From Elusimicrobiota bacterium (GTDB lineage: Bacteria > Elusimicrobiota > Elusimicrobia > UBA1565 > UBA9628): 48,257 bases of DNA. The DNA is taken from the NCBI GenBank assembly GCA_028865585.1, contig JAGWJU010000001.1, positions 1-48,257 of the forward strand. Direction: 5' to 3'. This document shows positions 4,302-47,654 of the stretch, piece after piece (the first letter of the stretch is position 1; each line of letters begins with the position of its first letter). The translations under genes and the position numbers were made by a program. A model generated the notes under the pieces. That model ran no database searches. It was not told where the DNA came from and saw only the letters and a list, made by a program, of their open reading frames with translations.

Positions 4302-7037
4302 TCAGAGCGGCTGATACTGCGGCTTCCAGAGCCGCGAGAACTGCAGGGAAATCCCGGTCATGGCGCTGTAGCCCCACTCGGGCGCGACCTTAAGTCCGAA
4401 GACGTAAACGTCGATGAACGGCGCGATGTTGAGCGCGTCCGTGATGGGGATGCTGAGCTTGAGATCGGCGTCGCTTTGCAGGCGCAGATCCTGCGGGCTG
4501 TCCTTGGCGGTGAGGAAGGAGTAGTTGGCGTAGAACTCTCCCTGCAGCGTCGCCGCGCCCCAGGCATGCGACAAAATCGCGCGCGTGTGAAGGCCGTACT
4601 GGGTGTTCTGCGGCACGCGGGCTTGATTGCGCAAGAGCACGCCCGAGAGTTCCCAGGAGCTTAGCCACGTGCCGTCGTAGAACTGCACGCCGGGATAAAG
4701 GCTGTAGGTGTTTTGCTGGGGCAGCCCCGGCGGCGGCGCGAACTGCCCGTCGTACTCGAAGCCCAGAGAGGGACCCCAAGATTTTCCCATCCAGGCTTGG
4801 GATATGGTGCCGGTCTTGCGCGTCAACGTGGTCAGCGCCGTGATGTCGTTGGCGGAAGTATTTGTAATGGGAGTCTGGCCGGGCGGTTCCAGCCGGCTTT
4901 TGGCGTAGTCCATTTCCAAAGTGTTCGACCATTTGTAGACGTTTCGGAAGTAATCCGCGTCCACCTTGATGTCGCCGCCCAGCAGCATCTGGTTGTAGCC
5001 CTGGATGCGGGAGTCGGGAACTCGGGAGAAAGGGCCGTTGTTGACCACCTGGGTGTTCTGCAGGTTGAGGCTTACGTCGCGAAAGTTGACCAGCCAGAGC
5101 CCGGCTTTGGAGGTCGAGCGGCCTTCGGTCCAGGCACGGTAGAGTGCGGGCGAGGCGCCCGCGCGGGCTTGGAGCGCCGCGAGCACAAGGGCGTCCAGAT
5201 TCTTTGGCAGCGGCGTGCTTTTGCGGTTTTGCAGCCCGAGCGCTTCGGCCAGAGTCACAGGGATCGCCACGCGGTAAGTCTCGTCTTCGGAGATGCTCCG
5301 GCCCTGAATGCCGCCTGTTTTGTCCAGGCCTCCGGCGGTGAACTGCAGGTCGTCGTTCGCGGGCAGGTGCTCCGCGCCGCGCGCCGCTTGGCGCTTGATG
5401 CGGGCCAGAAGCGGCAGGATGTCGGAGCCCTTGAGGTAGAGGATTTCCATGGCGGAGTTGGTGCGCAGCCAGGCCCGCACCACGCTTTCCGGGATGGGCG
5501 CGCTGGCTTCGACCCGCACGGTCAGCGGCCAAATCCAAAGCAGGGAAAGCTCCGATTGCGTCCTGGCCGCGGACAAGGACGCGGCCAGGGTCCAGAACTC
5601 GCGGTCGCTCAAGTACATCGATGGGCGGTCGGGAAAAATGGAGCCCTCGGGGGGAATCAGCGCGGCTTGCGTGGAGAAGCCGATGCCGTAGTTTTCCGGA
5701 TCGAACTCGGGATAGCCGGGAGCCGAAGGCACCGAGGCGTCGAGGATGCGGTGGTCCACGCGGGCCGTCCAGTCGGAGCTGCTCCCGTGGACGGCGACCT
5801 CGGCGTGGATGAAATCGACCGAGGTTTCGTAGGAGTCGACGACTCCCAGGGGAGGGTCGAAGGGCCTGCGGCCGTTCTGCGAGAAAACGGATTCCGGCGG
5901 AGGCTCGGCATGGTCCGGGGTGGAACGGTCGCGCGCCAGGATGAGGTCGACCCCCGCGGCCTCGTCGGCCAGGGCCTCCGTGCCGCCGTCCATCTCGGCC
6001 AGGAGCACGACCGCGTCGCCGTCTTTGCGCCACCGGGGGGCGCGGGCGTAGATGGCCGCGATGGGGTCCGTAATTTTCATATTGGAAAGGCCGTTTTCCT
6101 TCAGGTATCTTGCGGTCGCTGGCGGGGTTACTGCCGCCAGCACCACGCGCAGGCCCCCGACGTCGACCACCGCGTGGTCCGGAAACACGGTCGTCTGGGG
6201 CGCCGAGGAATAGACGATGTTGGCGGAAATGAACTTAATGCCCCGGGGATGTTCCGCGCGGTAGCGCATCAGCGCGCTCCAGTCGCGCAGTTCCGCGTAG
6301 CCCACGCCGGAGTATCGCAGCCCCATGCGCGCCAAGTCCTCGGCCAGCGCCGCGCCGTGCGCCTCGGAAAGCACGCCTCCGAACACCTCGCCGCGGGCCA
6401 CGCCGATGAGGGGCCCATTTTTCGCCGCCTCGGCCAGCACGCTCGCTTGGCGCCCCAGGCCTCCGAAGCTCTTGCCTACCACGAGGACGCGCACTTTCCG
6501 GCCCCGCCAGGACAAATCGTAAATCGAAGCGGCGGTCTGGTGCCAGATGGTGCTTACTGTCTTGCCGGGGTTGATGAAGGCCGTGAGCACGGCGCCATCA
6601 GGGGCGGGAGATTGGAAAAGAGCGGCGGAGGAGGTGGTGAAGCTCACGCTCCAGGGCCGGCCGTAGGTCTGGGGATTTTCGGCCGCGGCGGCCAAGGCCG
6701 CGATGAGGCCCGGCTCGGGAGGATAAACGAAGGCCAGTCCCGCGCCGGTCCGCAGGACCGAGGCGGCGAGGCTTCCGGAAGAGGCGTCCGCGCTGCTTTC
6801 CGGGACGCGGAAGCGGTAGTCGCCCCCGCTGTAGTAGCACGGGAGGATCCGCACATCCTTGATGACGAGCTCGGCCGCGTCTTTCTTGGACAGCGCCTCG
6901 AGGGGCTGGGCGAGGAAGAAGGAAAAACGCGGCGGGTTGTCCTCAATGAGGGCCAAACGGAAATGGCCGCTCCGCGTCTGGGCCCGGGCCAGCCCCGGCA
7001 GGCAGAGAAGCAGCGCGGCCAGCGCGCGGGCGATCAC
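4302..7037 (-). CDS. Large outer-membrane protein: signal peptide + degenerate UshA/5'-nucleotidase-like domain + C-terminal beta-barrel
   Basis: The 1305-aa ORF 4302..8219 overlaps clpB out of frame and was trimmed to GTG 7037, which gives (M)[19 protein letters not shown]. The middle region aligns motif by motif with UshA, but the metal ligands are replaced. The last ~300 aa are alternating, aromatic-rich beta-strand-like sequence ending ..[17 protein letters not shown]. Confidence 0.7.
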
Positions 7038-18970: not shown

Positions 18971-19083
18971 TCTCCTAGGCGGGATGCGGCTCTGTTGTCG
19001 TTCGTGGTGCCGTACCGTTGCGAACCTGGAGAAAGCTTACCAAGGCCGCGTCACGAAAATGTTTCGCGGCCGTGAAAAAGTTG

Positions 19084-19113
19084 TTGCCGGAAAGGCCGGG
19101 GGTTTGGTATCGT
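19084..19113 (+). promoter_or_regulatory. Sigma70-like promoter with extended -10 (TTGCCG-18-TGgTATCGT)
   Basis: TTGCCG at 19084-19089, 18-nt spacer, TG at 19105-19106, TATCGT at 19108-19113, then 6 nt to the GTG at 19120. Confidence 0.4.
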
Positions 19114-19119
19114 CACCCC

Positions 19120-19392
19120 GTGACGCGCACAGCGCTCGGGAAAATCGCGGCCGCGTTTTTTGCCGGCTGCCTGTTCCTCCTGACCATCCACGACTTGGCC
19201 CACGCCAAGGAGAAGCACTCGGCTCCCTGCCAGGTCTGTGTGATGGTCGCGCGCACTGCGGCGCACACGGCCAAGGCCGCGCCGCATGTCATTGCCCGCG
19301 CCGCGCGGATCAGCGACGCGCCCCTTCCCGTCATCAAGCTCGTGTGTCGCGCGCCGTCCCCCGCCGCCTCCCGCGATCCGCCCGCCGCCTAG
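19120..19392 (+). CDS. Small membrane-anchored His/Cys-rich protein (CxxC), reminiscent of DUF2946-type proteins
   Basis: In frame within ORF 19018..19392. From GTG 19120 it reads (M)TRTALGKIAAAFFAGCLFLLTIHDLAHAKEKHSAPCQVCVMVARTAAHTAKAAPH.., that is one TM helix, several His and a CxxC. It lies directly upstream of the porin/metal-uptake genes, and the promoter position supports this start. Confidence 0.4.
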   Translation: MTRTALGKIAAAFFAGCLFLLTIHDLAHAKEKHSAPCQVCVMVARTAAHTAKAAPHVIARAARISDAPLPVIKLVCRAPSPAASRDPPAA

Positions 19393-19460
19393 AAAGCCGC
19401 CCGTTCTTCCGTTCCGGGTTTGTTCCCGTTCGTACGACGATTTTAATTTGGAGGTTTCCC

Positions 19461-20603
19461 ATGCGTTCGATTCTCTTATGCGGCCTGTGCGCCGTCCTGC
19501 TTCCTCTTTCGGCCTGGGCGGACTCCCAAGGCGCGTCCGCGGTTGAGAGCGGCATCATCACATCTTACGTTCCCAGCGTGCCCAAGCTGTTTCTGCCCGA
19601 CTTCGGCATCGCCGGAGACTTCGCCTACCAGCGCACCAGCCTGACTAAAAAGGATCCGCGCTACAACAACGGATCCATCAACCAGCCGCAAATTCGCGAC
19701 GGTCAAATCGTGGCGTTTTCTCCCATCGATCCCTACGCCAACGCCCAGTTCACCGTCGACCTGCCCGGCAGCGGCACGCCCAACGTCCAAGAAGCCTGGG
19801 TTTATTTCGATCAGCTGCCCTGGGGCGTGGACATGCGCGCCGGGCGCTTCCTGCCCCAGTTCGGGCTTCTGGATCAGCAGGACACCTTCCAACTGGCCAT
19901 GCTCAACCGCCCAAGCGCCATCGGCGACTACATCGGCTCGGGCGGCATGGACGCCTCGGGCGCGGAGGCCGACTTCTACGTGCCTAATCCGTGGAACTTA
20001 AACCTGAAGGCGGACTTGAACGCCGTCGAGGGGGACGTCCTTGGCGGCACGGCTCAAAAAGGCGAATTGGCGTACCTGGGGACTCTCGATTATTCGGGAG
20101 ACTTCCTGACCTCCGGATCCATCGAGGCCGGCGCCAGCGCGGCCCAGGGGCCTTCGCCCTACGGGCTCGCGGAAACGCTGGTCGATCCTTACTTCCAGGT
20201 TCAGTATGCCCCGTCCCAGCGCCGCGTCTGGACTTGGAGCGTGGAGGGCATGCTGGCCGAACGCCGGGGGCTGGGCGGCGCCGACTTCAAGAAAAGCGTC
20301 TACACCTTCCTGGACTACAACTTCGCGCTCTTCTACCACGTCGGCTTCCTTGTGGACGTCGCGGACTTGCCCGGGGCGCTGCCCGGCGTGACCTATCCGG
20401 GGGCCTTCCCCGATGCGTTCGCAGGAGCGCCTTCCTATGGGACGCAGGTGAGCTTCGCGCCCAACTTCACCTGGTTCGTCTCGGACAACACGCGCCTGCG
20501 GCTGCAGTACACGCACACCACGCCCGTGGGCTCGGAGCGTCCTGATGAAACCGCGTCCCTTCAGCTTACCTTCTCGCTCGGGAACTTGAAGCAGCTCAAC
20601 TAG
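19461..20603 (+). CDS. Porin-like outer-membrane beta-barrel protein (porin O/P-like pattern)
   Basis: ORF 18984..20603 trimmed to ATG 19461, with a GGAGG Shine-Dalgarno at 19450-19454. Signal peptide MRSILLCGLCAVLLPLSAWA/D. EAWVYFDQLPWGVDMRAGRFLPQFG resembles the porin O/P family motif, and alternating beta-strand pattern runs to the C-terminus. Confidence 0.65.
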   Translation: MRSILLCGLCAVLLPLSAWADSQGASAVESGIITSYVPSVPKLFLPDFGIAGDFAYQRTSLTKKDPRYNNGSINQPQIRDGQIVAFSPIDPYANAQFTVDLPGSGTPNVQEAWVYFDQLPWGVDMRAGRFLPQFGLLDQQDTFQLAMLNRPSAIGDYIGSGGMDASGAEADFYVPNPWNLNLKADLNAVEGDVLGGTAQKGELAYLGTLDYSGDFLTSGSIEAGASAAQGPSPYGLAETLVDPYFQVQYAPSQRRVWTWSVEGMLAERRGLGGADFKKSVYTFLDYNFALFYHVGFLVDVADLPGALPGVTYPGAFPDAFAGAPSYGTQVSFAPNFTWFVSDNTRLRLQYTHTTPVGSERPDETASLQLTFSLGNLKQLN

Positions 20604-39551: not shown

Positions 39552-39625
39552 TCCCAGGTGGTGTAATGGTAACACAGCGGACTTTGAATCCGCTATTCCT
39601 GGTTCGAGTCCAGGCCTGGGAACCA
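39552..39625 (+). tRNA. tRNA-Gln (anticodon UUG), CCA encoded
   Basis: Acceptor stem TCCCAGG/CCTGGGA. Anticodon arm GCGGA-CTTTGAA-TCCGC places TTG at positions 34-36. T-arm CTGGTTCGAGTCCAG. 3' end is A-CCA. Confidence 0.9.
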
Positions 39626-42079: not shown

Positions 42080-42841
42080 ATGGAAGACATCAAATTGACG
42101 GCGGAAAAAAGGCCCTCCAAGGGCACCAAGAAGGATCTCTCGTCCCTGCGCGCGCGCCTGCGCGTGCCGGGCATCGTCTACGGCGAGGGCAAGCCGGAGA
42201 TTTTAGTGGAGGTGGCGGAGAAGGACATCCTCGCCGCGCGCAAGAAGGGCGGCGTCAACGCCATCCTGCACCTGGAGCTGGGCGGCGCGACCGAGACCGT
42301 CATCGTCAAGGAGCTCCAGAGGCATCCGGTTTCCTCCCAGCTCTGGCACGCGGACTTCCAGCGCATCTCCATGACCCGCAAGATCACGGCCAAGGTGCCG
42401 CTGCGCATCAAGGGCGAGGCGCCGGGCGTCAAGAACTCGGGCGGCGTGCTCCAGCACGAGCTGCGCGAGCTGACCTTAAAGGCCCTGCCCGCGAAGATTC
42501 CCCAGTTCATCGACGTGGACGTCTCGAACCTGGAGCTGCACAAGCACATCGCGGTCAAGGACCTGTCCCTGGGCGGCGACGTCGAAGTCGTGGAGGCTCC
42601 CGAGCACATCGTGGTGCACGTGACCATCGCCAAGGTCGAGGAAGCGGCTCCCGCTCCCGCGGCCGCGGACGCCGCCGCGGCGGGCGCGGCTCCGGCCGAA
42701 CCCGAGCTCAGCCAGGTCAAGGGCAAGAAGGACGAGGAAGGCAAGCCCTTGCCCAAGGAAGCCAAGGAGGGCGGCAAGGAAGGCGGCAAGGAAGCCGCCC
42801 CCAAGGGCAAAGAAGGCGGCGCGGCTCCGGCGAAGAAGTAG
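42080..42841 (+). CDS. rplY: 50S ribosomal protein L25/Ctc form with a long low-complexity C-terminal tail
   Basis: N-terminus ..KRPSKGTKKDLSSLRARLRVPGIVYG.. and the Ctc beta-barrel domain. The last ~60 aa are rich in Ala/Lys/Glu/Gly and contain a KEGGKE repeat. Confidence 0.85.
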   Translation: MEDIKLTAEKRPSKGTKKDLSSLRARLRVPGIVYGEGKPEILVEVAEKDILAARKKGGVNAILHLELGGATETVIVKELQRHPVSSQLWHADFQRISMTRKITAKVPLRIKGEAPGVKNSGGVLQHELRELTLKALPAKIPQFIDVDVSNLELHKHIAVKDLSLGGDVEVVEAPEHIVVHVTIAKVEEAAPAPAAADAAAAGAAPAEPELSQVKGKKDEEGKPLPKEAKEGGKEGGKEAAPKGKEGGAAPAKK

Positions 42842-42853
42842 CCGCGGACCCGC

Positions 42854-43420
42854 TTGGCGGAGCTGCGACTCGTCGTGGGCCTGGGCAACCCCGGCCCCCG
42901 CTACGCCCGCACGCGGCACAACGTCGGCTGGCGGCTGGTGGACTTTTTGGCCGGCCCGGACGCGGCCTGGAAGAACTTCAAGGGCCTGGGCGCCTGCGCG
43001 GACGCGGGAGGCTTTTTGCTGGCCAAGCCGGAGACCTTCATGAACGACTCGGGCCGCTTCGTGCGCGCCTTCGCGGCCTTCCGCCGGATTTCGCCCGCGG
43101 AAATCCTGGTCTGCTACGACGAGCTCGATTTGCCCTTCGGGCGCCTGCGCTTGAAGCCCTCCGGCTCCGCGGCCGGGCACAAGGGCATGGGCTCCATCAT
43201 CGCGGAGCTGGGCACCGAGGAGATTCCCCGGCTGCGCCTGGGCGTGGGGCCCAAGCCTCCCCAGGCCGACGGCGCGGCCTTCGTGCTGGGCCGCTTTTCC
43301 CCGGATGAGGAAAAAACCCTGGGCGGCGTGCTCGAGGCCGCGGCCCAGGCCGCGCGCCTGGCCCGGGCGGAAGGCCTGGAGGCGGCCATGAACCGCTTCA
43401 ACGGGGCGGCCGCGCCATGA
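42854..43420 (+). CDS. pth: Peptidyl-tRNA hydrolase
   Basis: LVVGLGNPGPRYARTRHNVGW, FMNDSG, GHKGM. TTG start. Confidence 0.9.
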   Translation: MAELRLVVGLGNPGPRYARTRHNVGWRLVDFLAGPDAAWKNFKGLGACADAGGFLLAKPETFMNDSGRFVRAFAAFRRISPAEILVCYDELDLPFGRLRLKPSGSAAGHKGMGSIIAELGTEEIPRLRLGVGPKPPQADGAAFVLGRFSPDEEKTLGGVLEAAAQAARLARAEGLEAAMNRFNGAAAP

Positions 43421-43635
43421 AGCCGCTGTTGCTCTCCCTGAGCGCCGTTTTTTTCCTGCTGGGCTTCGGCTATCTCTACCGCCCCGATCTGGTCTCCCGC
43501 CTGATGTCCTTCCTGCGCGACTACGTCTTGAACGACAGCCACATGATTCTGGAGCGCAAGAAGTGGGGGGCTTTTTTTCTGCTGGCGGGATTCTTCCTTC
43601 TTTACGTCGGCCTGGGCGGGATGGCGAGGCGCTAG
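43417..43635 (+). CDS. Small hypothetical membrane protein (2 predicted TM helices)
   Basis: 72 aa, ATGA overlap with the pth stop. Hydrophobic segments LLLSLSAVFFLLGFGYL and GAFFLLAGFFLLYVGLG. No family recognised. Confidence 0.45.
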   Translation: MKPLLLSLSAVFFLLGFGYLYRPDLVSRLMSFLRDYVLNDSHMILERKKWGAFFLLAGFFLLYVGLGGMARR

Positions 43636-43639
43636 CGCG

Positions 43640-44998
43640 GTGAAAGACTTAAAAGGCATGGCGGAGCAGGCTTTGGCGGACATCCGCGCGCGCCTGCCCG
43701 CGGGAGCGGAGGCGGAGATCTATCTCTCCCGCAGCGCCGGGCGCGGCGTCGAATTGCGCCGCGGCCGCCTGGACGCCGTGGAGGACTCCGAATCCTCCGG
43801 CGCGGGCCTGCGCGTCATCCACGAGGGGCGCGCGGGCTTCGCCTCCTGCGGCGGCCTGGAGCCGGAAAAAATACGCGGGCTCGCCGCGCCCGCGCTGGCC
43901 CAGCTCAAGCACTCCTCCGGCGACTATTTCCGCGCGTTCGCGCCGGCGGCCGCGGCGGAGGGCGCTCCGGCGGGTCCCCTGGCGGCGACGCTTTGGGACG
44001 AGTCCGTGCTCACCGGCCCCTGGAAGGAAAAAGAGGAGAGCTTGAAGGCCCTGTGCGCGGCGGCGCAAGCCGCGGACAAGCGCGTGGGCGACGTTCTGCG
44101 CGCGGGCTATCACGAAGGGCGCGGGGAGAGCGCGACGGCCAACACGCGGGGGCTTCTCTCCTGCGAGCGCGGCACCTTCGCGGGCGCCGGCGCCTCGGTC
44201 CTGGCTCTTCAGGACGGCGAACGCCAAATCGGCTCCTCCTCGGCCTCGGCCCGGAAGGGCGGCGGCTTCGACTTCAAGCGCCTGGGCGAAACGGCCGCGC
44301 GGCGCGCCTGCGCGCTTTTGGGCGCGCGCCAGGCTCCCAGCGGGCCCCGCGCCGTGATTTTCGATCCGTGGATTTCCGGCGAGTTCGTCGACTTGATCGC
44401 GGATCTCCTGTGCGCCGACGCGGTCCAGAAGGGCAAGTCGCTCATGGCCAGGAAGGTCGGCCTCAAGGTCGCCTCGCCCCTGGTCACCTTCGTCGACGAT
44501 CCGCGGCTGCCCGGCGGGACGGCCAGCTCCCTCTACGACGACGAGGGCTGCGCGACCAAGCGCAAGACCATGATCAAGGACGGCATCCTGCAGGACTACT
44601 TCTACGACGTGTATTGCGCCAATAAGGACGGCCGGCGCACCAACGCCAGCGCCGCGCGCGGCTCCTACCGCGGCCGGCCCGGGCCGGCCGCCTCCAATTT
44701 TTACCTCGCGCCCGGCAAGGACAAGCGCGACGACATCATCGCCGGGACCAAGAAGGGCGTCCTGGTCCTGGAGGTCATGGGCATGCACACGGTGGATCCC
44801 GTCTCCGGGGAGTTTTCCATTGGGGTCTCGGGCCTGGAGATAGACGGCGGCCGCCTGGGCGCGCCTCTGCGCTCGGCCATGATTTCCGGGAACCTGCTCG
44901 ACGTGCTCTCCCGCGTCGACGCCGTCGGCTCGGACCTCGCCTTCTACGGCTCCACGGGCGCGCCCACCTTCCGCGTCGCCGAGCTCTCGGTCGCCTAG
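43640..44998 (+). CDS. pmbA: TldD/PmbA-family metalloprotease
   Basis: 452 aa, GTG start. ..SGAGLRVIHEGRAGFA.., C-terminal GVLVLEVMGMHTVDPVSGEFSIGVSGLEIDGG. Confidence 0.85.
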   Translation: MKDLKGMAEQALADIRARLPAGAEAEIYLSRSAGRGVELRRGRLDAVEDSESSGAGLRVIHEGRAGFASCGGLEPEKIRGLAAPALAQLKHSSGDYFRAFAPAAAAEGAPAGPLAATLWDESVLTGPWKEKEESLKALCAAAQAADKRVGDVLRAGYHEGRGESATANTRGLLSCERGTFAGAGASVLALQDGERQIGSSSASARKGGGFDFKRLGETAARRACALLGARQAPSGPRAVIFDPWISGEFVDLIADLLCADAVQKGKSLMARKVGLKVASPLVTFVDDPRLPGGTASSLYDDEGCATKRKTMIKDGILQDYFYDVYCANKDGRRTNASAARGSYRGRPGPAASNFYLAPGKDKRDDIIAGTKKGVLVLEVMGMHTVDPVSGEFSIGVSGLEIDGGRLGAPLRSAMISGNLLDVLSRVDAVGSDLAFYGSTGAPTFRVAELSVA

Positions 44999-45009
44999 CC
45001 GGACGGCCG

Positions 45010-45127
45010 CCGGCGCTCCGAAACCCGTCCGCCCCCGAACCCCGGGAAACCCATCCCGGGTTTCCCTCCGGCCTTCGGCCGGAGCCTCCCTTCCCCACGG
45101 GGTCCGGCCTGGTTTTCGGAGCGCCGG
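45010..45127. repeat. Structured repeat, module 1, copy A (14-bp outer stem enclosing a conserved 53-nt segment plus extra hairpins)
   Basis: CCGGCGCTCCGAAA (45010-45023) pairs perfectly with TTTCGGAGCGCCGG (45114-45127). Inner hairpins are GGGAAACCC/GGGTTTCCC (45044-45066) and CTCCGGCC-TTC-GGCCGGAG (45066-45084). Positions 45013-45065 match the reverse complement of 47281-47333 at 48/53 by hand alignment. Confidence 0.8.
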
Positions 45128-45173
45128 CATGGACCTTCTCTTCTCTGCTTCGGCGCGGTTTCTCTTCGTCAAC

Positions 45174-45255
45174 GCCCGGGACGGGCGCGATCCGGAGCGA
45201 GATGAGCCCGAGAGCGCTCTTGACGGGGCGAGCGCAGGACGCGCCCGTCCCGGGC
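45174..45255. repeat. Structured repeat, module 2, copy A (16-bp perfect stem, 50-nt loop with a conserved 40-nt apex)
   Basis: GCCCGGGACGGGCGCG (45174-45189) pairs with CGCGCCCGTCCCGGGC (45240-45255). The apex 45195-45234 matches the reverse complement of 47187-47226 at 37/40. Confidence 0.8.
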
Positions 45256-45289
45256 GCAAACGCAAGGGCAAACAGCGCCGGCGGGTCCG

Positions 45290-45721
45290 CTAGCGCGCGA
45301 TCCGGTTGACGACCACGTCGGCCTGGCTGGAGCCGTTGGGCACGGGGTCGGGGCGGCGCCCTTCCAGGTCGCCGGGCCGGAGCTTGCCCACGTCTCCGCG
45401 AGAGTTTTCCTCCACTTCGATGAGGAAGGGCCCGCCGGGCGGCCCGCCCGGCAGCAGCAGATCGGGAGCGCCTAGGCGGTAGAAGACCGGAAAGACGGGA
45501 TTGACCACGCGGCGCACGGCCACGGGCACGCCGCCCATGTTCTTGGCGACGACGAAGAGGACCGAGTTGGGGCGCTGGGCGCGGGAGCGCAGCGGGGTCG
45601 AGACCGTGACCGTGCCCGAGAGCGAGAAGCCCCTGGCCCGGCAGGCGCCCAGGGCCAGCGCGGCGGCGGCGCCGGCCGCCAGGAGGACGCGGGCGCGCGA
45701 AGCCCGGACCGCCCGGGTCAC
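45290..45721 (-). CDS. Hypothetical lipoprotein
   Basis: GTG start in a GTGA overlap with the upstream gene. Lipobox-like ..AAALALGAC. No catalytic motif recognised. Confidence 0.5.
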   Translation of the reverse strand: MTRAVRASRARVLLAAGAAAALALGACRARGFSLSGTVTVSTPLRSRAQRPNSVLFVVAKNMGGVPVAVRRVVNPVFPVFYRLGAPDLLLPGGPPGGPFLIEVEENSRGDVGKLRPGDLEGRRPDPVPNGSSQADVVVNRIAR

Positions 45722-46506
45722 GCCGGCGCGGTTTCCTGGTGTTCCGGCCTCAGGGCCAGGTAGAGATAGGCGCCGGTGACGGCCAGGGCGACCAGGGAGA
45801 ACAGCGGGATGCGCGCGGGCATGAAGAGGAAGATGATCTGCACCGCGATGATGAGCGTCTGGGCGTAGGCCGAGAGGTTGAAGAGCTCGGCGTAGGCCCG
45901 CCCGGCGTGGAGCGCGTTGTTCAAGGCCATCGCGACCAGGGAGTAGAAGAGCGAGGAGACGAGCTTCCAGACCAGGAACACCACGAAAAGCCCGAAGATC
46001 GCGGCGGGGTAGAGGATGCGGTTCAAGAGCGCGCCCGCCTCCTTGTAGAAGGCGGCGTCCAGGGTCACGGGCTTCTCGGTCTTGGTGTCCGAAAAGCTGC
46101 GGTCCTCGATGGTGCCGTTGGGCCGGCGCAGGTAGAAGTCGGACTGGGTCAGGTAGGCCGTCACCCCCGAGTCGTCCATGTCCTTCTCCGTGACGGGCGC
46201 GGTGCGGGTCGTGTCGATGGCCACGGCCACGTCCTGGTAGGCGGGATCGCGCAGCACCACGGGCATGGCCGCGGGCGAGGTGAACTTGCCGTTGTCGAAG
46301 GTCAGGACCGGCGCGGACTTGGCCAGCCAGTCGAAGGTCTGATCCAGGGCGGGACCGACGCGGACTTTCAAAGCGACGGCGCCCAGGACGCAGAAAATCG
46401 CGGCCAGGTACACGAGGTAGAGCAAGGTGCGGGAGAAGGCCTGCTTGGCGATCTTCCGGTAGAAAGAGACGCTGGTAATCGCGTTGACGGGATCGAGGAG
46501 AATCAT
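45718..46506 (-). CDS. DUF1189/YvdJ-like polytopic membrane protein
   Basis: N-terminus ..SVSFYRKIAKQAFSRTLLYLVYLAAIFCVLGAV.. followed by an extracytoplasmic loop and 4-5 more TM helices, matching the DUF1189 layout as I recall it. Confidence 0.6.
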   Translation of the reverse strand: MILLDPVNAITSVSFYRKIAKQAFSRTLLYLVYLAAIFCVLGAVALKVRVGPALDQTFDWLAKSAPVLTFDNGKFTSPAAMPVVLRDPAYQDVAVAIDTTRTAPVTEKDMDDSGVTAYLTQSDFYLRRPNGTIEDRSFSDTKTEKPVTLDAAFYKEAGALLNRILYPAAIFGLFVVFLVWKLVSSLFYSLVAMALNNALHAGRAYAELFNLSAYAQTLIIAVQIIFLFMPARIPLFSLVALAVTGAYLYLALRPEHQETAPA

Positions 46507-46512
46507 GGGCCT

Positions 46513-46542
46513 AGTTTAGCACGGGCGGCTTCGCGCGCGCAA
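46513..46542 (-). promoter_or_regulatory. Sigma70-like promoter with extended -10 (TTGCGC-18-TGcTAAACT), leaderless
   Basis: Minus strand reads TTGCGC (46542-46537), 18-nt spacer, TGC then TAAACT (46518-46513), then 6 nt to the ATG at 46506. Confidence 0.5.
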
Positions 46543-46566
46543 ATGCTCCGCACGGCGCGCGGCGGC

Positions 46567-46596
46567 TTGACAGGGGCGCGGTCGGGAGGCTACCCT
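46567..46596 (+). promoter_or_regulatory. Sigma70-like promoter (TTGACA-18-TACCCT), leaderless rfbC
   Basis: TTGACA at 46567-46572, 18-nt spacer, TACCCT at 46591-46596, then 7 nt to the GTG at 46604. Confidence 0.5.
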
Positions 46597-46603
46597 TTGA
46601 GGC

Positions 46604-47167
46604 GTGAACTTCAAAACCTCGCCCGCGGCCCTGCCCGAGGTCCTGCTTGTTGAGTTCGGGCGCATCCAGGACGAGCGCGGATTTTTCGCCGAGACGTATA
46701 AGGAAAAGGACTTCGCGGCCCTAGGCTTGCCGCGCTTCGTGCAGGACAACGCGTCCCGCTCAGCCCAAGGCATTCTGCGCGGCCTGCACTACCAGTTGAA
46801 CCCCGCCGCGCAGGGCAAACTGGTGCGCTGCACGCGCGGCCGCGTCTTCGACGCCGCGGTGGACATCCGAAAGGACTCGCCGCGCTGGGGCAAGTGGGCC
46901 GCGGTCGAGCTTTCCGAGGACAAGCCCCTCATGATCTACGTGCCGCCCGGCTTCGCGCACGGCTTTTTGGCCTTGACCGACGGCGCCGAGGTGCTCTACA
47001 AGACGACCGCGTATTACTCGCCCGAGCACGAGCGGTGCCTTTTGTGGAACGACCCGGCCGTGGGCGTCCCCTGGCCGATCAGGGAGCCCGCCCTCTCGCC
47101 CAGGGACGCGCGCGCGCCGCTCTTGAAGGACGCCGAGACGAACTTCGAGTTCGCGTTCCCGCTCTAG
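46604..47167 (+). CDS. rfbC: dTDP-4-dehydrorhamnose 3,5-epimerase
   Basis: DERGFF.E, RGLHYQ, QGKLVRC..G.VFDAAVDIRK.SP..GKW, PPGFAHGF, typical RmlC cupin motifs. GTG start. Confidence 0.92.
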   Translation: MNFKTSPAALPEVLLVEFGRIQDERGFFAETYKEKDFAALGLPRFVQDNASRSAQGILRGLHYQLNPAAQGKLVRCTRGRVFDAAVDIRKDSPRWGKWAAVELSEDKPLMIYVPPGFAHGFLALTDGAEVLYKTTAYYSPEHERCLLWNDPAVGVPWPIREPALSPRDARAPLLKDAETNFEFAFPL

Positions 47168-47250
47168 CGGTTGCGGCCTGTCCCCTCGCTCGCCCCGTCA
47201 GGAGCGTTGTCGGGCTCATCTCGCTCGGTGACCAAGCCGCAACCGCTAGA
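47163..47250. repeat. Structured repeat, module 2, copy B (15-bp perfect stem, 58-nt loop), inverted relative to copy A
   Basis: TCTAGCGGTTGCGGC (47163-47177) pairs with GCCGCAACCGCTAGA (47236-47250). The left arm contains the rfbC stop codon TAG (47165-47167). Confidence 0.8.
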
Positions 47251-47268
47251 GACTCCGGACTGGATTTG

Positions 47269-47338
47269 AGCGGGCGCCCCGGAAACCCGGGATGGGTTTC
47301 CCGGGGTCCGGGGACGGCCGGGTTCCGGGGCGCCCGCT
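47269..47338. repeat. Structured repeat, module 1, copy B (14-bp outer stem), inverted relative to copy A
   Basis: AGCGGGCGCCCCGG (47269-47282) pairs with CCGGGGCGCCCGCT (47325-47338). It holds the 26-nt core GGAAACCCGGGATGGGTTTCCCGGGG (47281-47306), the exact reverse complement of 45040-45065. The right arm overlaps the ferredoxin stop codon. Confidence 0.8.
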
Positions 47339-47627
47339 AGCCCAGGAGATCGCGCAGGATTTCGGGCGCGTCCTCGGGCTTGACGCCCGAGCGCCACTCG
47401 CCGCCCGGGTAGACGAAGAGGTTGGGGCCGTGCGCGCACAAATCGAGGCAGCCGGACTTGGCCACGCGGATTTTGCCCTTCAAGCCCGCGTCCTTGACCG
47501 CTTTCTTGAGCGCCTCGCAGAGCTCCGCGCCGCCGCGGCCGGGGTTGGCGCAGGCCTCGCGCCCGTCCGTGCGGACGTTGGCGCAGACGAAGACCGTCTT
47601 TTGGTAGGGGACGCTTTTCTTTTCCAT
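47337..47627 (-). CDS. Thioredoxin-like [2Fe-2S] ferredoxin
   Basis: ORF 47337..48233 trimmed to ATG 47627 (MEKKSVPYQKTVFVCANVR..). Cys pattern C-x10-C ... C-x3-C (VFVCANVRTDGREACAN ... SGCLDLCAHGP), as in the Trx-fold ferredoxin family. The rest of the ORF is antisense to the DegT-like gene. Confidence 0.75.
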   Translation of the reverse strand: MEKKSVPYQKTVFVCANVRTDGREACANPGRGGAELCEALKKAVKDAGLKGKIRVAKSGCLDLCAHGPNLFVYPGGEWRSGVKPEDAPEILRDLLG

Positions 47628-47654
47628 GCGTTTTTCGGGGCCCCGGACGCCATA

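What the first reader, a model, noticed from the sequence alone, without database searches (positions are those of the whole stretch)
45174..45255. Structured repeat, module 2: conserved 40-nt apex carried on unrelated but perfect 15-16-bp stems
At 45174-45255 a perfect 16-bp stem (GCCCGGGACGGGCGCG/CGCGCCCGTCCCGGGC) encloses 50 nt. At 47163-47250 a perfect 15-bp stem (TCTAGCGGTTGCGGC/GCCGCAACCGCTAGA) encloses 58 nt. The stems share no sequence similarity. The enclosed apices, however, are 37/40 identical in inverted orientation: GAGCGAGATGAGCCCGAGAGCGCTCTTGACGGGGCGAGCG at 45195-45234, against the reverse complement of 47187-47226. Inside the apex, GAGCG (1-5) can pair with CGCTC (21-25), and a second GAGCG (36-40) offers an alternative partner. 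There are two readings. One is a functional hairpin family in which only structure is selected in the base and sequence in the apex (a protein or ribosome-independent recognition site). The other is a ~40-58-nt miniature element that inserts into the loops of pre-existing terminator hairpins. I do not recognise either as a described element.
Basis: seen in the sequence. Interest (0 to 1): 0.7.

Follow-up and report, generated by a model that had tools for sequence, protein, structure and literature searches.

The report
Two-hairpin intergenic repeat of Elusimicrobiota
The hairpin is real, but it is one half of a small non-coding repeat that a few related uncultured Elusimicrobiota carry between the ends of convergent genes; it looks like a miniature transposon later kept folded by selection, so it is a new example of a familiar kind of bacterial repeat, not a new kind of system.

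Summary
In detail: both stems are perfect and the apices are 37/40 identical in inverted orientation, with none expected by chance. It is incomplete, though. "Module 2" always follows a second conserved hairpin (module 1). Together they form a 135-291-nt element that fills the whole spacer between convergent genes.

I found it at five genomic loci in about six Elusimicrobiota lineages and nowhere else (Rfam, plasmids, phages and viral contigs gave nothing).

- **Stems:** they are not locus-specific. Two stem classes recur at non-orthologous loci, and 16 of 28 pairs show compensatory double changes, while the apex is nearly invariant.
- **Empty sites:** relatives lacking the element have no hairpin. 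The two stop codons overlap in CTAG at two independent loci.
- **Insertion signature:** the youngest insertion (window 44999-45289) is flanked by CTAG on both sides and has about 20-nt terminal inverted repeats.
- **Later history:** sister lineages carry both copies in the opposite orientation, and one lineage keeps only a 35-nt remnant.

Best reading: a MITE/REP-like mobile-origin element whose folded single strand is under selection, probably as a 3'-UTR terminator, stabiliser or recognition hairpin. "Apex inserted into pre-existing terminators" is refuted. It is a new member of a known kind, of moderate interest.

The parts
43640..44998 (+). Flanking gene X, a PmbA/TldD-family metallopeptidase. 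Its stop codon TAG is 44996-44998. Copy A lies in its 3' direction, in sense.
   Evidence: Pfam PF19289, PF19290 and PF01523. ORF list.
44995..44998 (.). CTAG at the left edge of copy A. It holds the stop codon of X and is the putative duplicated target.
   Evidence: In the relative L008 the empty site holds a single CTAG shared by both stop codons.
44999..45289 (+). Element copy A, the long form of 291 nt: module 1, spacer, module 2 and a right terminal repeat. It fills the whole spacer between two convergent genes.
   Evidence: It is absent from the orthologous site in L008, L016, L010 and L015.
44999..45020 (+). Left terminal inverted repeat of copy A, CCGGACGGCCGCCGGCGCTCCG. It is also the 5' arm of the module 1 outer stem.
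   Evidence: Alignment to the reverse complement of the right end scores p = 0.0005 against shuffles. The first 21 nt are identical in L001, although the interior there is inverted.
45009..45129 (+). Module 1, long form. It has an outer stem (GCCGGCGCTCCGAAACC / GGTTTTCGGAGCGCCGGC), an invariant hairpin GGGAAACCC-AUC-CCGGGUUUCCC, a hairpin CUCCGGCC-UUC-GGCCGGAG, and a C-rich tail CCUCCCUUCCCCAC.
   Evidence: I1; I18. The core CGGGAAACCCATCCCGGGTTTCC is exact in seven of the eight copies seen here (winA, winB, L001 B*, L002/L005, L004/L006, L007). L001 A* has CGGGGAAACCC and L008 has CAGGAAACCC.
45130..45173 (+). Spacer between the modules. It is pyrimidine-rich and not conserved between copies.
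45174..45255 (+). Module 2 hairpin, the finding itself. It has a 16-17-bp perfect A-type stem, a sub-apical TCC/GGA helix and the 40-nt apex.
   Evidence: I15; covariance model R1, 96.4 bits.
45195..45234 (+). Conserved 40-nt apex of module 2, GAGCGAGATGAGCCCGAGAGCGCTCTTGACGGGGCGAGCG.
   Evidence: (I2). It is 32-40/40 identical in seven copies.
45272..45289 (+). Right terminal inverted repeat of copy A, GCGCCGGCGGGTCCG. It is complementary to the left end.
   Evidence: (the MFE fold pairs the two ends).
45290..45293 (.). CTAG at the right edge of copy A. It holds the stop codon of gene P on the minus strand and is the second copy of the putative target.
45290..45721 (-). Flanking gene P, a 143-aa protein with weak Ig_CycH-like similarity, convergent with X.
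46604..47167 (+). Flanking gene rmlC (dTDP-4-dehydrorhamnose 3,5-epimerase). Its CTC-TAG end forms the last 5 bp of the copy B module 2 stem.
   Evidence: Pfam PF00908..
47164..47167 (.). CTAG at the rmlC edge of copy B. It holds the rmlC stop codon.
47168..47336 (-). Element copy B, the short form of 169 nt, read on the minus strand: module 1 without its second hairpin, then spacer, then module 2.
   Evidence: Orthologous copies occur in L008 (135 nt, same orientation) and L001 (256 nt, opposite orientation), and a 35-nt remnant in L026-L031.
47163..47250 (-). Module 2 hairpin of copy B. It has a 15-bp perfect stem (19 bp with one G.U pair) of the B type that is shared with other loci.
   Evidence: I13; 93.7 bits.
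47187..47226 (-). Conserved apex of copy B, 37/40 to copy A. It is 40/40 identical to the apex at the orthologous L001 site.
47246..47249 (.). Third CTAG, inside copy B between the modules. It mirrors the rmlC stop region across the hairpin.
   Evidence: Its origin is unresolved: palindrome extension, a module 2 target duplication, or chance.
47269..47338 (-). Module 1 of copy B, short form. The outer stem GCGGGCGCCCCGGAA/TTCCGGGGCGCCCGC encloses the invariant GGGAAACCC hairpin.
   Evidence: I8.
47337..47340 (.). CTAG at the Y edge of copy B. It holds the stop codon of gene Y.
47337..47627 (-). Flanking gene Y, a 96-aa (2Fe-2S) ferredoxin-domain protein. Copy B lies in its 3' direction, in sense.
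   Evidence: Translation. Homologues and names given by sources.

Best explanation
The hairpin at 45174-45255 is the second of two hairpin modules of a 135-291-nt non-coding element. The element is restricted to a small clade of uncultivated Elusimicrobiota.

**Origin (shown in part).** The element is, or was, mobile. It lands where the stop codons of two convergent genes overlap in the palindrome CTAG (more generally YTAR). That tetranucleotide then appears on both sides, so both genes keep their stops, and the element fills the new spacer. Its two ends are inverted repeats of each other in about half of the copies. [quoted passage not shown] No transposase partner was seen.

**After insertion (shown).** Copies persist for a long time at the same site. 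They can flip orientation in place, exchange parts with the neighbouring copy 2 kb away, lose internal pieces, or be largely deleted.

**What is selected (shown for structure, inferred for the molecule).** In each module the stem changes fast but stays paired through compensatory changes, while the apex is almost frozen. So a folded single strand with a sequence-specific tip is under selection in situ.

**Function (inferred).** Most likely the fold acts in RNA, as the 3' UTR of whichever flanking gene reads it in sense. It would act as a 3'-end-forming or insulating structure between convergent transcripts (terminator plus decay barrier, as shown for REP elements). The module 2 apex would be a recognition site for a protein or RNA. 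One possible recognition motif is an internal loop with tandem GA/GA next to a GCCC/GGGC helix, which resembles a kink-turn.
For: **Composite and family**
- Module 1 and module 2 lie in the same order and orientation in both window copies.
- The same holds for every other module 2 copy: L001, L002/L005, L004/L006, L007 and L008.
- The search with the module 1 core, which did not select for module 2, returned three contigs. All three carry module 2.
- All copies fill convergent intergenic spacers exactly, from stop codon to stop codon.

**Insertion**
- Locus A is filled in the window, L014, L001 and L018. It is empty in L008 (stops overlap as CTAG), L016, L010 and L015.
- The L005 locus is filled, while its relative L032 has the stops overlapping as CTAG.
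- The filled locus A reads gtcgcCTAG|CCGGAC...GTCCG|CTAGcgcg.
- The termini are significant inverted repeats in winA (p = 0.0005), L001A (0.004), L004 (0.018) and L008 (0.05).
- CTAG is rare in the window, 20 sites against 59 expected, and 5 of the 20 lie at module boundaries.
- IS5 duplicates YTAR, most often CTAG (PMC5493358). IS630 inserts at TA within CTAG (Tenzen & Ohtsubo 1991, as listed in PMC2170065).

**Structure under selection**
- Module 2: 95.5% of cells paired, 16 of 28 pairs with double changes, 0 of 500 shuffles as good, slid controls at 30-41%.
- Between window A and L001 B* the stems differ by three fully compensated changes.
- The module 1 outer stem also covaries, with 6 pairs showing double changes.
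- The orthologous B copies (window, L001, L008) keep the apex at 37-40/40 while their stems diverge.

**Post-insertion dynamics**
- Orientation is opposite at both loci in L001 compared with the window. Each arrangement is confirmed by an independent assembly: L018 at 99% and L014 at 97.9%.
- A 35-nt remnant is all that remains in L026-L031.

**Functional analogy**
- REPs act as 3'-UTR terminator/stabilisers and are associated with higher expression of convergent pairs (bioRxiv 10.64898/2026.03.23.713779).
- Terminator stems evolve by compensatory switches (PMC5381666).
- In 6 of 8 copies, module 1 has an A-tract, a GC-rich hairpin and a run of 3-5 U.
Against: - **Copy number is low.** About two or three copies per genome, and no further copy in 311 kb of related DNA. 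Copies within one genome are quite diverged, which is unlike an active MITE family.
- **The conservation pattern is the reverse of a classical MITE.** The interior is conserved and the termini vary. The termini are not significant inverted repeats in winB or L002.
- **The target duplication rests on one young insertion.** Because the flanks are stop codons, selection to keep both stops could also produce CTAG...CTAG. At the second filled/empty pair the flanks are now CTAA and TCA(A).
- **No mobilising enzyme was found.** None of the 38 window ORFs scanned is a transposase or recombinase.
- **No transcript evidence.** There is no canonical U-tract terminator and no consistent strand bias in folding energy. 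Module 2 folds better in sense, module 1 in antisense. So RNA versus single-stranded DNA is undecided.
- **One lineage tolerates loss of most of the element**.
Confidence: 0.5

Rival explanations
1. A family of two to three paralogous small-RNA genes (or cis-acting 3'-UTR RNA domains) that is not mobile. The copies arose by rare duplication. The CTAG flanks are only the stop codons of tightly packed convergent genes. The two domains act in trans, for example the C-rich CCUCCCUUCCCC tail of module 1 as an anti-Shine-Dalgarno seed and the module 2 apex as a protein-binding loop.
For: - Conserved apices with covarying stems are the classic signature of a functional RNA.
- Copy number is low.
- The copy at locus B has been retained across three species-level lineages.
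- All five non-Watson-Crick pairs in the module 2 stems are G.U on the sense strand, and none is A.C.
- Module 2 folds better in sense in 5 of 7 copies.
Against: - The element appears at five unrelated loci, always exactly between convergent stop codons, with empty sites in close relatives.
- The ends are inverted repeats in half the copies.
- Orientation flips relative to both flanking genes between sister lineages. An RNA gene with its own promoter would need room that is not there.
- No promoter-like site was found.
- One lineage deleted most of the element.
- Short forms lack the C-rich tail.
- No Rfam family matches.
Confidence: 0.2
2. A DNA-level element. The hairpins and terminal inverted repeats would be sites for a recombinase or for replication-associated template switching. 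The unit would be an invertible segment (inverton-like), or the pair of inverted copies would mark a 2.3-kb cassette (P, DUF1189, rmlC). The perfect stems would be maintained by arm-to-arm copying rather than by selection on RNA.
For: - Whole-element orientation differs at both loci between sister lineages, while the genes between them stay put.
- The stems are almost entirely Watson-Crick, and both strands fold about equally well.
- The window B stem extends 5 bp into the rmlC coding end, with a mirrored CTAGA. Palindrome extension would produce exactly this.
- The two window copies are inverted repeats bracketing three genes.
Against: - No recombinase gene was found in the window.
- The three genes between the copies have the same orientation in every lineage seen.
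- In L008 only one of the two sites is occupied, so the pair is not a unit.
- G.U pairs do occur in stems, and arm-to-arm copying would erase them.
- A frozen apex is not explained by palindrome maintenance.
Confidence: 0.15
3. The 40-58-nt apex is itself a miniature insertion that targets the loops of pre-existing, locus-specific terminator hairpins.
For: - Window A and window B stems are unrelated in sequence.
- In L001 the locus-B apex (identical to the window-B apex) sits in a window-A-type stem, so apex and stem can have different histories.
Against: - Empty orthologous sites have no hairpin. The genes overlap or abut.
- The B-type stem accompanies the apex at four non-orthologous loci, and the A-type stem at two.
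- No apex-less long hairpins exist in the window.
- Module 2 never occurs without module 1.
Confidence: 0.03
4. It is simply a diverged local segmental duplication of one intergenic region, with no wider meaning.
For: The two window copies lie only 2 kb apart and share both modules.
Against: - Copies occur at three further unrelated loci in other lineages, with different flanking genes.
- The cores are conserved far beyond the level of the flanks.
- Covariation is significant.
Confidence: 0.02

Closest known systems
Bacterial MITEs derived from IS5- or IS630-family insertion sequences (targets YTAR/CTAG, or TA within CTAG)
   Same: - Small (135-291 nt), non-coding and intergenic.
- Folds into a very stable stem-loop.
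- Termini are inverted repeats in about half the copies.
- The youngest copy is flanked by CTAG on both sides, where relatives have a single CTAG.
- Presence or absence differs between close relatives.
   Different: - Only about two or three copies per genome, and they are diverged.
- The interior apices, not the terminal repeats, are the conserved part.
- No partner insertion sequence or transposase has been identified.
- GC-rich rather than AT-rich.
REP / BIME / REPIN elements of Proteobacteria
   Same: - GC-rich extragenic palindromes placed after stop codons, often between convergent genes.
- Occur in mosaics of hairpins in either orientation.
- Location varies between strains.
- Have documented roles as 3'-UTR terminator/stabilisers.
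   Different: - REPs are 20-40-nt hairpins with a conserved stem and a 5' GTAG-type tetranucleotide. They occur in hundreds of copies and are linked to a RAYT (TnpA-REP) gene.
- Here the hairpins are 80-120 nt, the stem is variable and the apex conserved, no GTAG is present, and copy number is tiny.
Modular pneumococcal repeats (BOX, RUP, SPRITE) and Correia/ERIC-type elements
   Same: - Built from separable modules that occur in long and short forms.
- Transcribed into stable structures.
- Cluster next to one another.
- Some are terminator-like.
   Different: No sequence relationship. Those families are abundant and are defined in Firmicutes and Proteobacteria.
Intrinsic (bidirectional) transcription terminators evolving by compensatory substitution
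   Same: - Placed between convergent genes.
- GC-rich stems kept paired by double switches, with G.U intermediates.
- Module 1 has an A-tract, a hairpin and a short U-run.
   Different: - Ordinary terminators are locus-specific, 5-12 bp, with small loops and no conserved 40-nt apex.
- Module 2 has no U-tract.
- The consensus terminator scan does not call either module.
Integron attC sites
   Same: Single-strand hairpins at the 3' ends of genes, in which structure rather than stem sequence is conserved.
   Different: attC sites have conserved R''/R' core sites (RYYYAAC/GTTRRRY), extrahelical bases and a variable apex. Here both core motifs are absent from the module 2 hairpins and element ends. 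GTTRRRY occurs only once each, internally, in L001 A* and L008, and RYYYAAC never occurs. The apex is the conserved part, and there is no integrase or cassette array.

Membership tests
MITE (miniature inverted-repeat transposable element) | Small (about 50-500 bp), non-coding, intergenic | tested here: met
   The element is 135-291 nt and fills the spacers between convergent genes. The antisense ATG-led ORF in module 1 is not conserved in length or sequence.
MITE (miniature inverted-repeat transposable element) | Terminal inverted repeats | tested here: inconclusive
   Significant in winA (p = 0.0005), L001A (0.004), L004 (0.018) and L008 (0.05). Not significant in L001B (0.14), L007 (0.09), L002 (0.34) or winB (0.94).
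MITE (miniature inverted-repeat transposable element) | Target-site duplication, seen by comparing filled and empty sites | tested here: inconclusive
   - Locus A has CTAG on both sides, against a single CTAG in L008.
- The second filled/empty pair (L005 versus L032) has a CTAG empty site, but the filled flanks now read CTAA and TCA(A).
- The test is confounded, because these tetranucleotides contain the stop codons.
MITE (miniature inverted-repeat transposable element) | Many near-identical copies per genome | tested here: not met
   Two copies in the 48-kb window. One or two per related genome in the collection scans. No further copy in 311 kb of related DNA. Copies within one genome differ in stems, spacers and length.
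MITE (miniature inverted-repeat transposable element) | A parent insertion sequence or transposase sharing the terminal repeats | not testable with these tools
   Whole genomes of these MAGs could not be searched. None of the 38 window ORFs scanned is a transposase. An IS1595-type gene lies next to the ferredoxin gene in L028, but no link to the element is shown.
REP / REPIN | Short (20-40 nt) palindrome with a conserved stem and a 5' GTAG-like tetranucleotide | tested here: not met
   No GTAG in any of the eight copies. The stems vary and the apex is conserved. The hairpins are 80-120 nt.
REP / REPIN | Tens to hundreds of copies, with an associated RAYT gene | tested here: not met
   Low copy number. 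Presence of a RAYT gene could not be tested genome-wide.
Intrinsic terminator | GC-rich hairpin with a small loop, followed by a U-tract | tested here: not met
   The consensus scan calls neither module. Module 2 has no U-run. Module 1 has only 3-5 U after its inner stem in 6 of 8 copies.
Any described RNA family (Rfam 15) | Covariance-model score at or above the gathering threshold | tested here: not met
   The only hit in the window is a tRNA at 39552-39622. In 44950-47400 the best E-value is 0.26, and every hit is far below its gathering score.
Integron attC | R''/R' core sites (RYYYAAC ... GTTRRRY) at the hairpin base, and an integron context | tested here: not met
   The motifs are absent from the module 2 hairpins. 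There is no integrase or cassette array.
Kink-turn-containing hairpin | A canonical stem, a 3-nt bulge, tandem sheared G.A/A.G pairs and a non-canonical stem | not tested
   By inspection only. G10-A11 lies opposite G36-A37 next to the helix GCCC(12-15)/GGGC(32-35), but the bulge would be 5 nt. There is one supporting covariation, C4-G38 to U-A in L007.

The most novel reading that the evidence does not exclude
The element is a host-selected, two-domain structured RNA module of a previously undescribed class. It can be installed at, and flipped within, the CTAG junction of convergent genes. Its orientation would then decide which of the two mRNAs carries the functional sense fold: the module 1 terminator and C-rich tail, and a module 2 protein-binding apex that resembles a kink-turn. 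The orientation switches seen at both loci between sister lineages would then be regulatory rewiring, not neutral rearrangement.
Probability: 0.1. Interest if true: 0.7.

Novelty: new member of a known kind. Interest (0 to 1): 0.35.

Why it matters
Nothing in Rfam, the plasmid, phage or viral collections, or the searched literature corresponds to this element. It therefore adds a repeat family to a phylum (Elusimicrobiota) known almost only from metagenomes.

It is a compact natural example of three processes acting together:
- Insertion into the CTAG formed by overlapping convergent stop codons. This is a site where a 4-bp (or TA) duplication leaves both genes intact.
- Long-term retention, with fast compensatory stem evolution around a frozen apex.
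- In-place orientation flips and part-swapping between neighbouring copies.

If the fold acts in the 3' UTR, it would be a candidate terminator or insulator part for high-GC bacteria. It would also be a handle for finding the protein that reads the apex.

For genome annotation, it explains two otherwise odd 170-290-nt spacers in an otherwise tightly packed region.

Tried and rejected
- **Rfam.** Both the gathering-threshold and permissive searches found nothing relevant. The weak hits (mir-967, D12-methyl, group II D1D4) are chance.
- **Ribozyme or coding explanations.** Hammerhead, other ribozymes and box C/D were considered by eye for the GAUGA motif, and no model supports them. The antisense ORF in module 1 (GGAGG, 10 nt, ATG, MGFPG...) was rejected. 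It is absent from short forms, variable in length, and runs into variable stem sequence.
- **Collections.** There were no viral-contig matches to the module 1 core and no plasmid or phage matches to the whole element. A literature search for the core sequences returned only unrelated mammalian primer hits.
- **More copies.** A covariance model of module 2 and nhmmer profiles of both modules were run over all held DNA (179-311 kb). They found only the known loci and the L026 remnant.
- **Strand of action.**
  - Whole-element sense and antisense energies differ inconsistently.
  - Module 2 favours sense and module 1 favours antisense.
  - The 5 G.U versus 0 A.C count in module 2 is suggestive, but the structure was derived on the sense strand. 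No strand call is made.
- **Selection from the close pair, window versus L014.** Abandoned. The whole 43250-47500 tract is nearly identical, so one difference in 460 nt of element says nothing.
- **Explaining the orientation flips by crossovers between the two inverted copies.** Rejected on logic. Such events invert the intervening genes or swap segments, but never flip a copy in place.
- **More distant ferredoxin (Y) loci** (L020-L025). They have a different neighbour gene and no element, so they are uninformative for locus B.
- **The Haliangium hit** (L003) from the genome scan is a chance match.
Full report
**1. The observation.**
- The sequence at 45174-45255 is a perfect 16-bp stem (17 bp by the repeat finder) around 50 nt. 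The sequence at 47163-47250 is a perfect 15-bp stem around 58 nt.
- The apex 45195-45234 matches the reverse complement of 47187-47226 at 37/40. These are the only two matches in the window at up to 3 mismatches, and none is expected in shuffles.
- Both intergenic regions fold much better than dinucleotide shuffles, z = -6.4 and -8.1.
- The four best short-range inverted repeats of the whole window all lie in these two regions.

**2. It is half of a larger unit.**
- A second repeat, module 1, is shared by the two regions: 45009-45065 against 47281-47337, 89%. It lies in the same order and relative orientation to module 2 in both.
- Copy A (44999-45289, plus strand) lies between the PmbA/TldD gene and a small Ig_CycH-like gene.
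- Copy B (47168-47336, minus strand) lies between rmlC and a 96-aa (2Fe-2S) ferredoxin gene.
- Both gene pairs are convergent, and each copy runs from stop codon to stop codon.
- Module 1 is a long hairpin. Its outer stem differs between copies but stays paired.
  - Its interior holds an invariant GGGAAACCC-AUC-CCGGGUUUCCC hairpin.
  - Long forms also hold a CUCCGGCC/GGCCGGAG hairpin and a C-rich tail.

**3. Relatives.**
- The window is a contig of an Elusimicrobia MAG.
- A scan of one genome per species with a module 2 pattern found three true copies in two Elusimicrobiota MAGs, plus one chance hit.
- A metagenome scan with the module 1 core did not select for module 2. It found three contigs, and all three carry module 2 downstream.
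- Fetching loci around homologues of flanking proteins added a compact 135-nt copy (L008) and independent assemblies of both the window lineage (L014) and its sister lineage (L017, L018).
- In all, the element occupies five genomic loci in about six lineages, always between convergent genes.
- Nothing matched in Rfam, viral contigs, plasmids or phages, or the literature text.
- Profile and covariance-model searches of 179-311 kb of related DNA found no further copies. Copy number is therefore low.

**4. Stems and apex.**
- On seven distinct module 2 copies, 95.5% of stem cells form standard pairs, and 16 of 28 pairs show changes on both sides.
- None of 500 column shuffles reaches any of the five measures. 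Sliding the partner by 1-3 columns drops pairing to 30-41%.
- The apex is 32-40/40 identical.
- The stems are not locus-specific.
  - A B-type stem (GCGGCTTG.../...CAAGCCGC) recurs in window B, L002, L004, L007, in compensated form in L008, and in the L026 remnant.
  - The A-type stem of window A recurs, with three fully compensated changes, at locus B of L001.
- The hairpin therefore belongs to the element. It is kept folded while its sequence drifts, and its tip is constrained.

**5. Empty sites and ends.**
- *Locus A.*
  - It is occupied in the window, L014, L001 and L018.
  - In L008 the two stop codons overlap as CTAG. In L016 they are 9 nt apart, in L010 1 nt, and in L015 20 nt.
  - PmbA nucleotide identity places L001 nearest the window (91%), L008 and L016 next (82%), and the others at about 71%. 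One gain in the window+L001 ancestor is therefore the simplest history.
  - The filled site reads ...gtcgcCTAG|CCGGACGG...GGGTCCG|CTAGcgcg..., so CTAG is present on both sides of the insert.
  - The two ends of the insert are inverted repeats (p = 0.0005).
- *The L005 locus.* A second, independent pair gives the same picture. The L005 locus is filled, and the orthologous site in L032 (75% protein identity) has the stops overlapping as CTAG. At that distance the flanks of the filled site have changed to CTAA and TCA(A).
- *CTAG and terminal repeats across the family.*
  - Four-nucleotide overlaps of convergent stops are necessarily YTAR, and they are common in these genomes.
  - CTAG itself is rare in the window: 20 sites against 59 expected, 5 of them at module boundaries.
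  - Terminal inverted repeats are significant in four of eight copies.
- *Comparison with known transposases.*
  - IS5 duplicates YTAR, mostly CTAG (PMC5493358).
  - IS630 inserts at the TA of CTAG (title in the reference list of PMC2170065).
  - Because CTAG is palindromic, the two modes cannot be told apart here.
  - No transposase or recombinase was found among the 38 window ORFs scanned.

**6. What happens after insertion.**
- *Locus B history.* The locus B copy is orthologous in the window, L001 and L008. In strains whose ferredoxin protein is 98% identical to that of L008, only the last 35 nt of the element remain. This is seen in six assemblies.
- *Orientation flips.*
  - Between the window lineage and its sister lineage, the whole element is inverted at both loci. 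The three genes in between keep their orientation.
  - Flank sequence is collinear right up to the element ends.
  - Each arrangement is confirmed by a second, independent assembly.
  - Crossovers between the two mutually inverted copies cannot produce this. Inversion between the terminal repeats, or excision and re-insertion at the same CTAG, could.
- *Exchange and replacement of parts.*
  - The L001 locus-B module 2 has the apex variant of window B (40/40) inside a window-A-type stem. This shows exchange of parts.
  - L001 locus A carries module 1 followed by an unrelated hairpin of about 100 nt.
  - The window B stem extends 5 bp into the rmlC CTC-TAG, mirrored by an internal CTAGA. This may reflect palindrome extension by template switching.

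**7. Which molecule is selected?**
- I could not decide between RNA and single-stranded DNA.
- All five non-Watson-Crick pairs in module 2 stems are G.U on the sense strand, and module 2 folds better in sense in 5 of 7 copies.
- Against that, module 1 folds better in antisense in 5 of 5, and whole-element energies show no consistent bias.
- No sigma-70-like promoter or canonical terminator is called.
- Module 1 does have an A-tract, a GC-rich hairpin and 3-5 U in 6 of 8 copies.
- By analogy with REP elements, I infer a 3'-end-forming or insulating role in the 3' UTR.
  - REPs act as 3'-UTR terminator/stabilisers and accompany higher expression of convergent pairs (bioRxiv 10.64898/2026.03.23.713779).
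  - Terminator stems are known to evolve by compensatory switches (PMC5381666).
- I infer that the apex is a recognition site.
- The kink-turn-like reading of its internal loop is speculation from inspection, plus one covariation (C4-G38 to U-A in L007).

**8. Comparison and verdict.**
- The element works like, and most resembles, a bacterial MITE/REP-type structured intergenic repeat (general features in PMC10969869).
- It meets the MITE criteria for size, location and stable fold. It partly meets the criteria for terminal repeats and target duplication.
- It fails the copy-number and homogeneity criterion, and it reverses the usual pattern of conservation (interior rather than termini).
- It is not a REP (no GTAG, wrong size, low copy number), not an attC site, and not in Rfam.
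The "insertion into pre-existing terminator hairpins" reading does not.
- I classify it as a new member of a known kind, of moderate interest. The orientation flips and the separable histories of apex and stem are the parts most worth following up.

Noticed in passing
window 39552-39622 (+): A tRNA gene, the only Rfam hit above the gathering score in the window (69.5 bits).
   Followed up: no
window, whole (20 CTAG sites); L008 8510-8513, L023 6746-6749, L025 10288-10291, L032 6606-6609, L011 10402-10405 and 3686-3689: CTAG is about three-fold under-represented in the window (20 sites against 59 expected). Convergent gene pairs in these Elusimicrobiota frequently overlap by exactly 4 nt at CTAG or CTAA, so the two stop codons share bases.
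   Followed up: partly
L016 630-645: At the empty locus A of one relative, the junction reads CTAG-GCGGCGCGT-CTAG. That is a 13-nt insertion relative to L008, with CTAG duplicated. It could be an excision footprint or solo end of the element, or a simple tandem duplication.
   Followed up: partly
L001 3400-3495 (same in L018 1770-1880): An unrelated near-perfect hairpin of about 100 nt follows module 1 in place of module 2 at locus A of the sister lineage. It has no similarity to anything in the window.
   Followed up: partly
L028 21-935: An IS1595-family transposase gene (Zn_ribbon_IS1595 + DDE_Tnp_IS1595) lies directly upstream of the ferredoxin gene in one assembly of the lineage that carries only the 35-nt remnant.
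   Followed up: no
L008 13884-16907: A small integrated island (phage-type integrase, HTH_17, PC4-like, Prim-Pol) sits next to the glmU-like gene in a relative. It is absent from the corresponding part of the window, which has the tRNA at 39552 upstream of glmU.
   Followed up: no
window 42250-43250 and 47500-47640, compared with 43250-47500: Compared with the second MAG of the same species (L014), divergence is mosaic. It is about 10% in the L25/pth region and beyond 47500, but only 0.3% across the 4.2 kb that contains both elements. This suggests a recent recombination tract.
   Followed up: partly
window 4302-7034 and 18984-20603: Long ORFs with no Pfam match, in a window otherwise made of housekeeping genes (ClpB, Tsp protease, HemE, ZnuABC, FtsH, FolP, GlmM, PdxJ, GlmS, IspE, GlmU, Prs).
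   Followed up: no
window 45066-45108; L001 5571-5613; L004 and L007 equivalents: Long forms of module 1 carry an invariant single-stranded C-rich stretch, GGAGCCUCCCUUCCCCAC, complementary to Shine-Dalgarno-like GGAGG/GGGG sequences. The short forms (window B, L002, L008) lack it.
   Followed up: no
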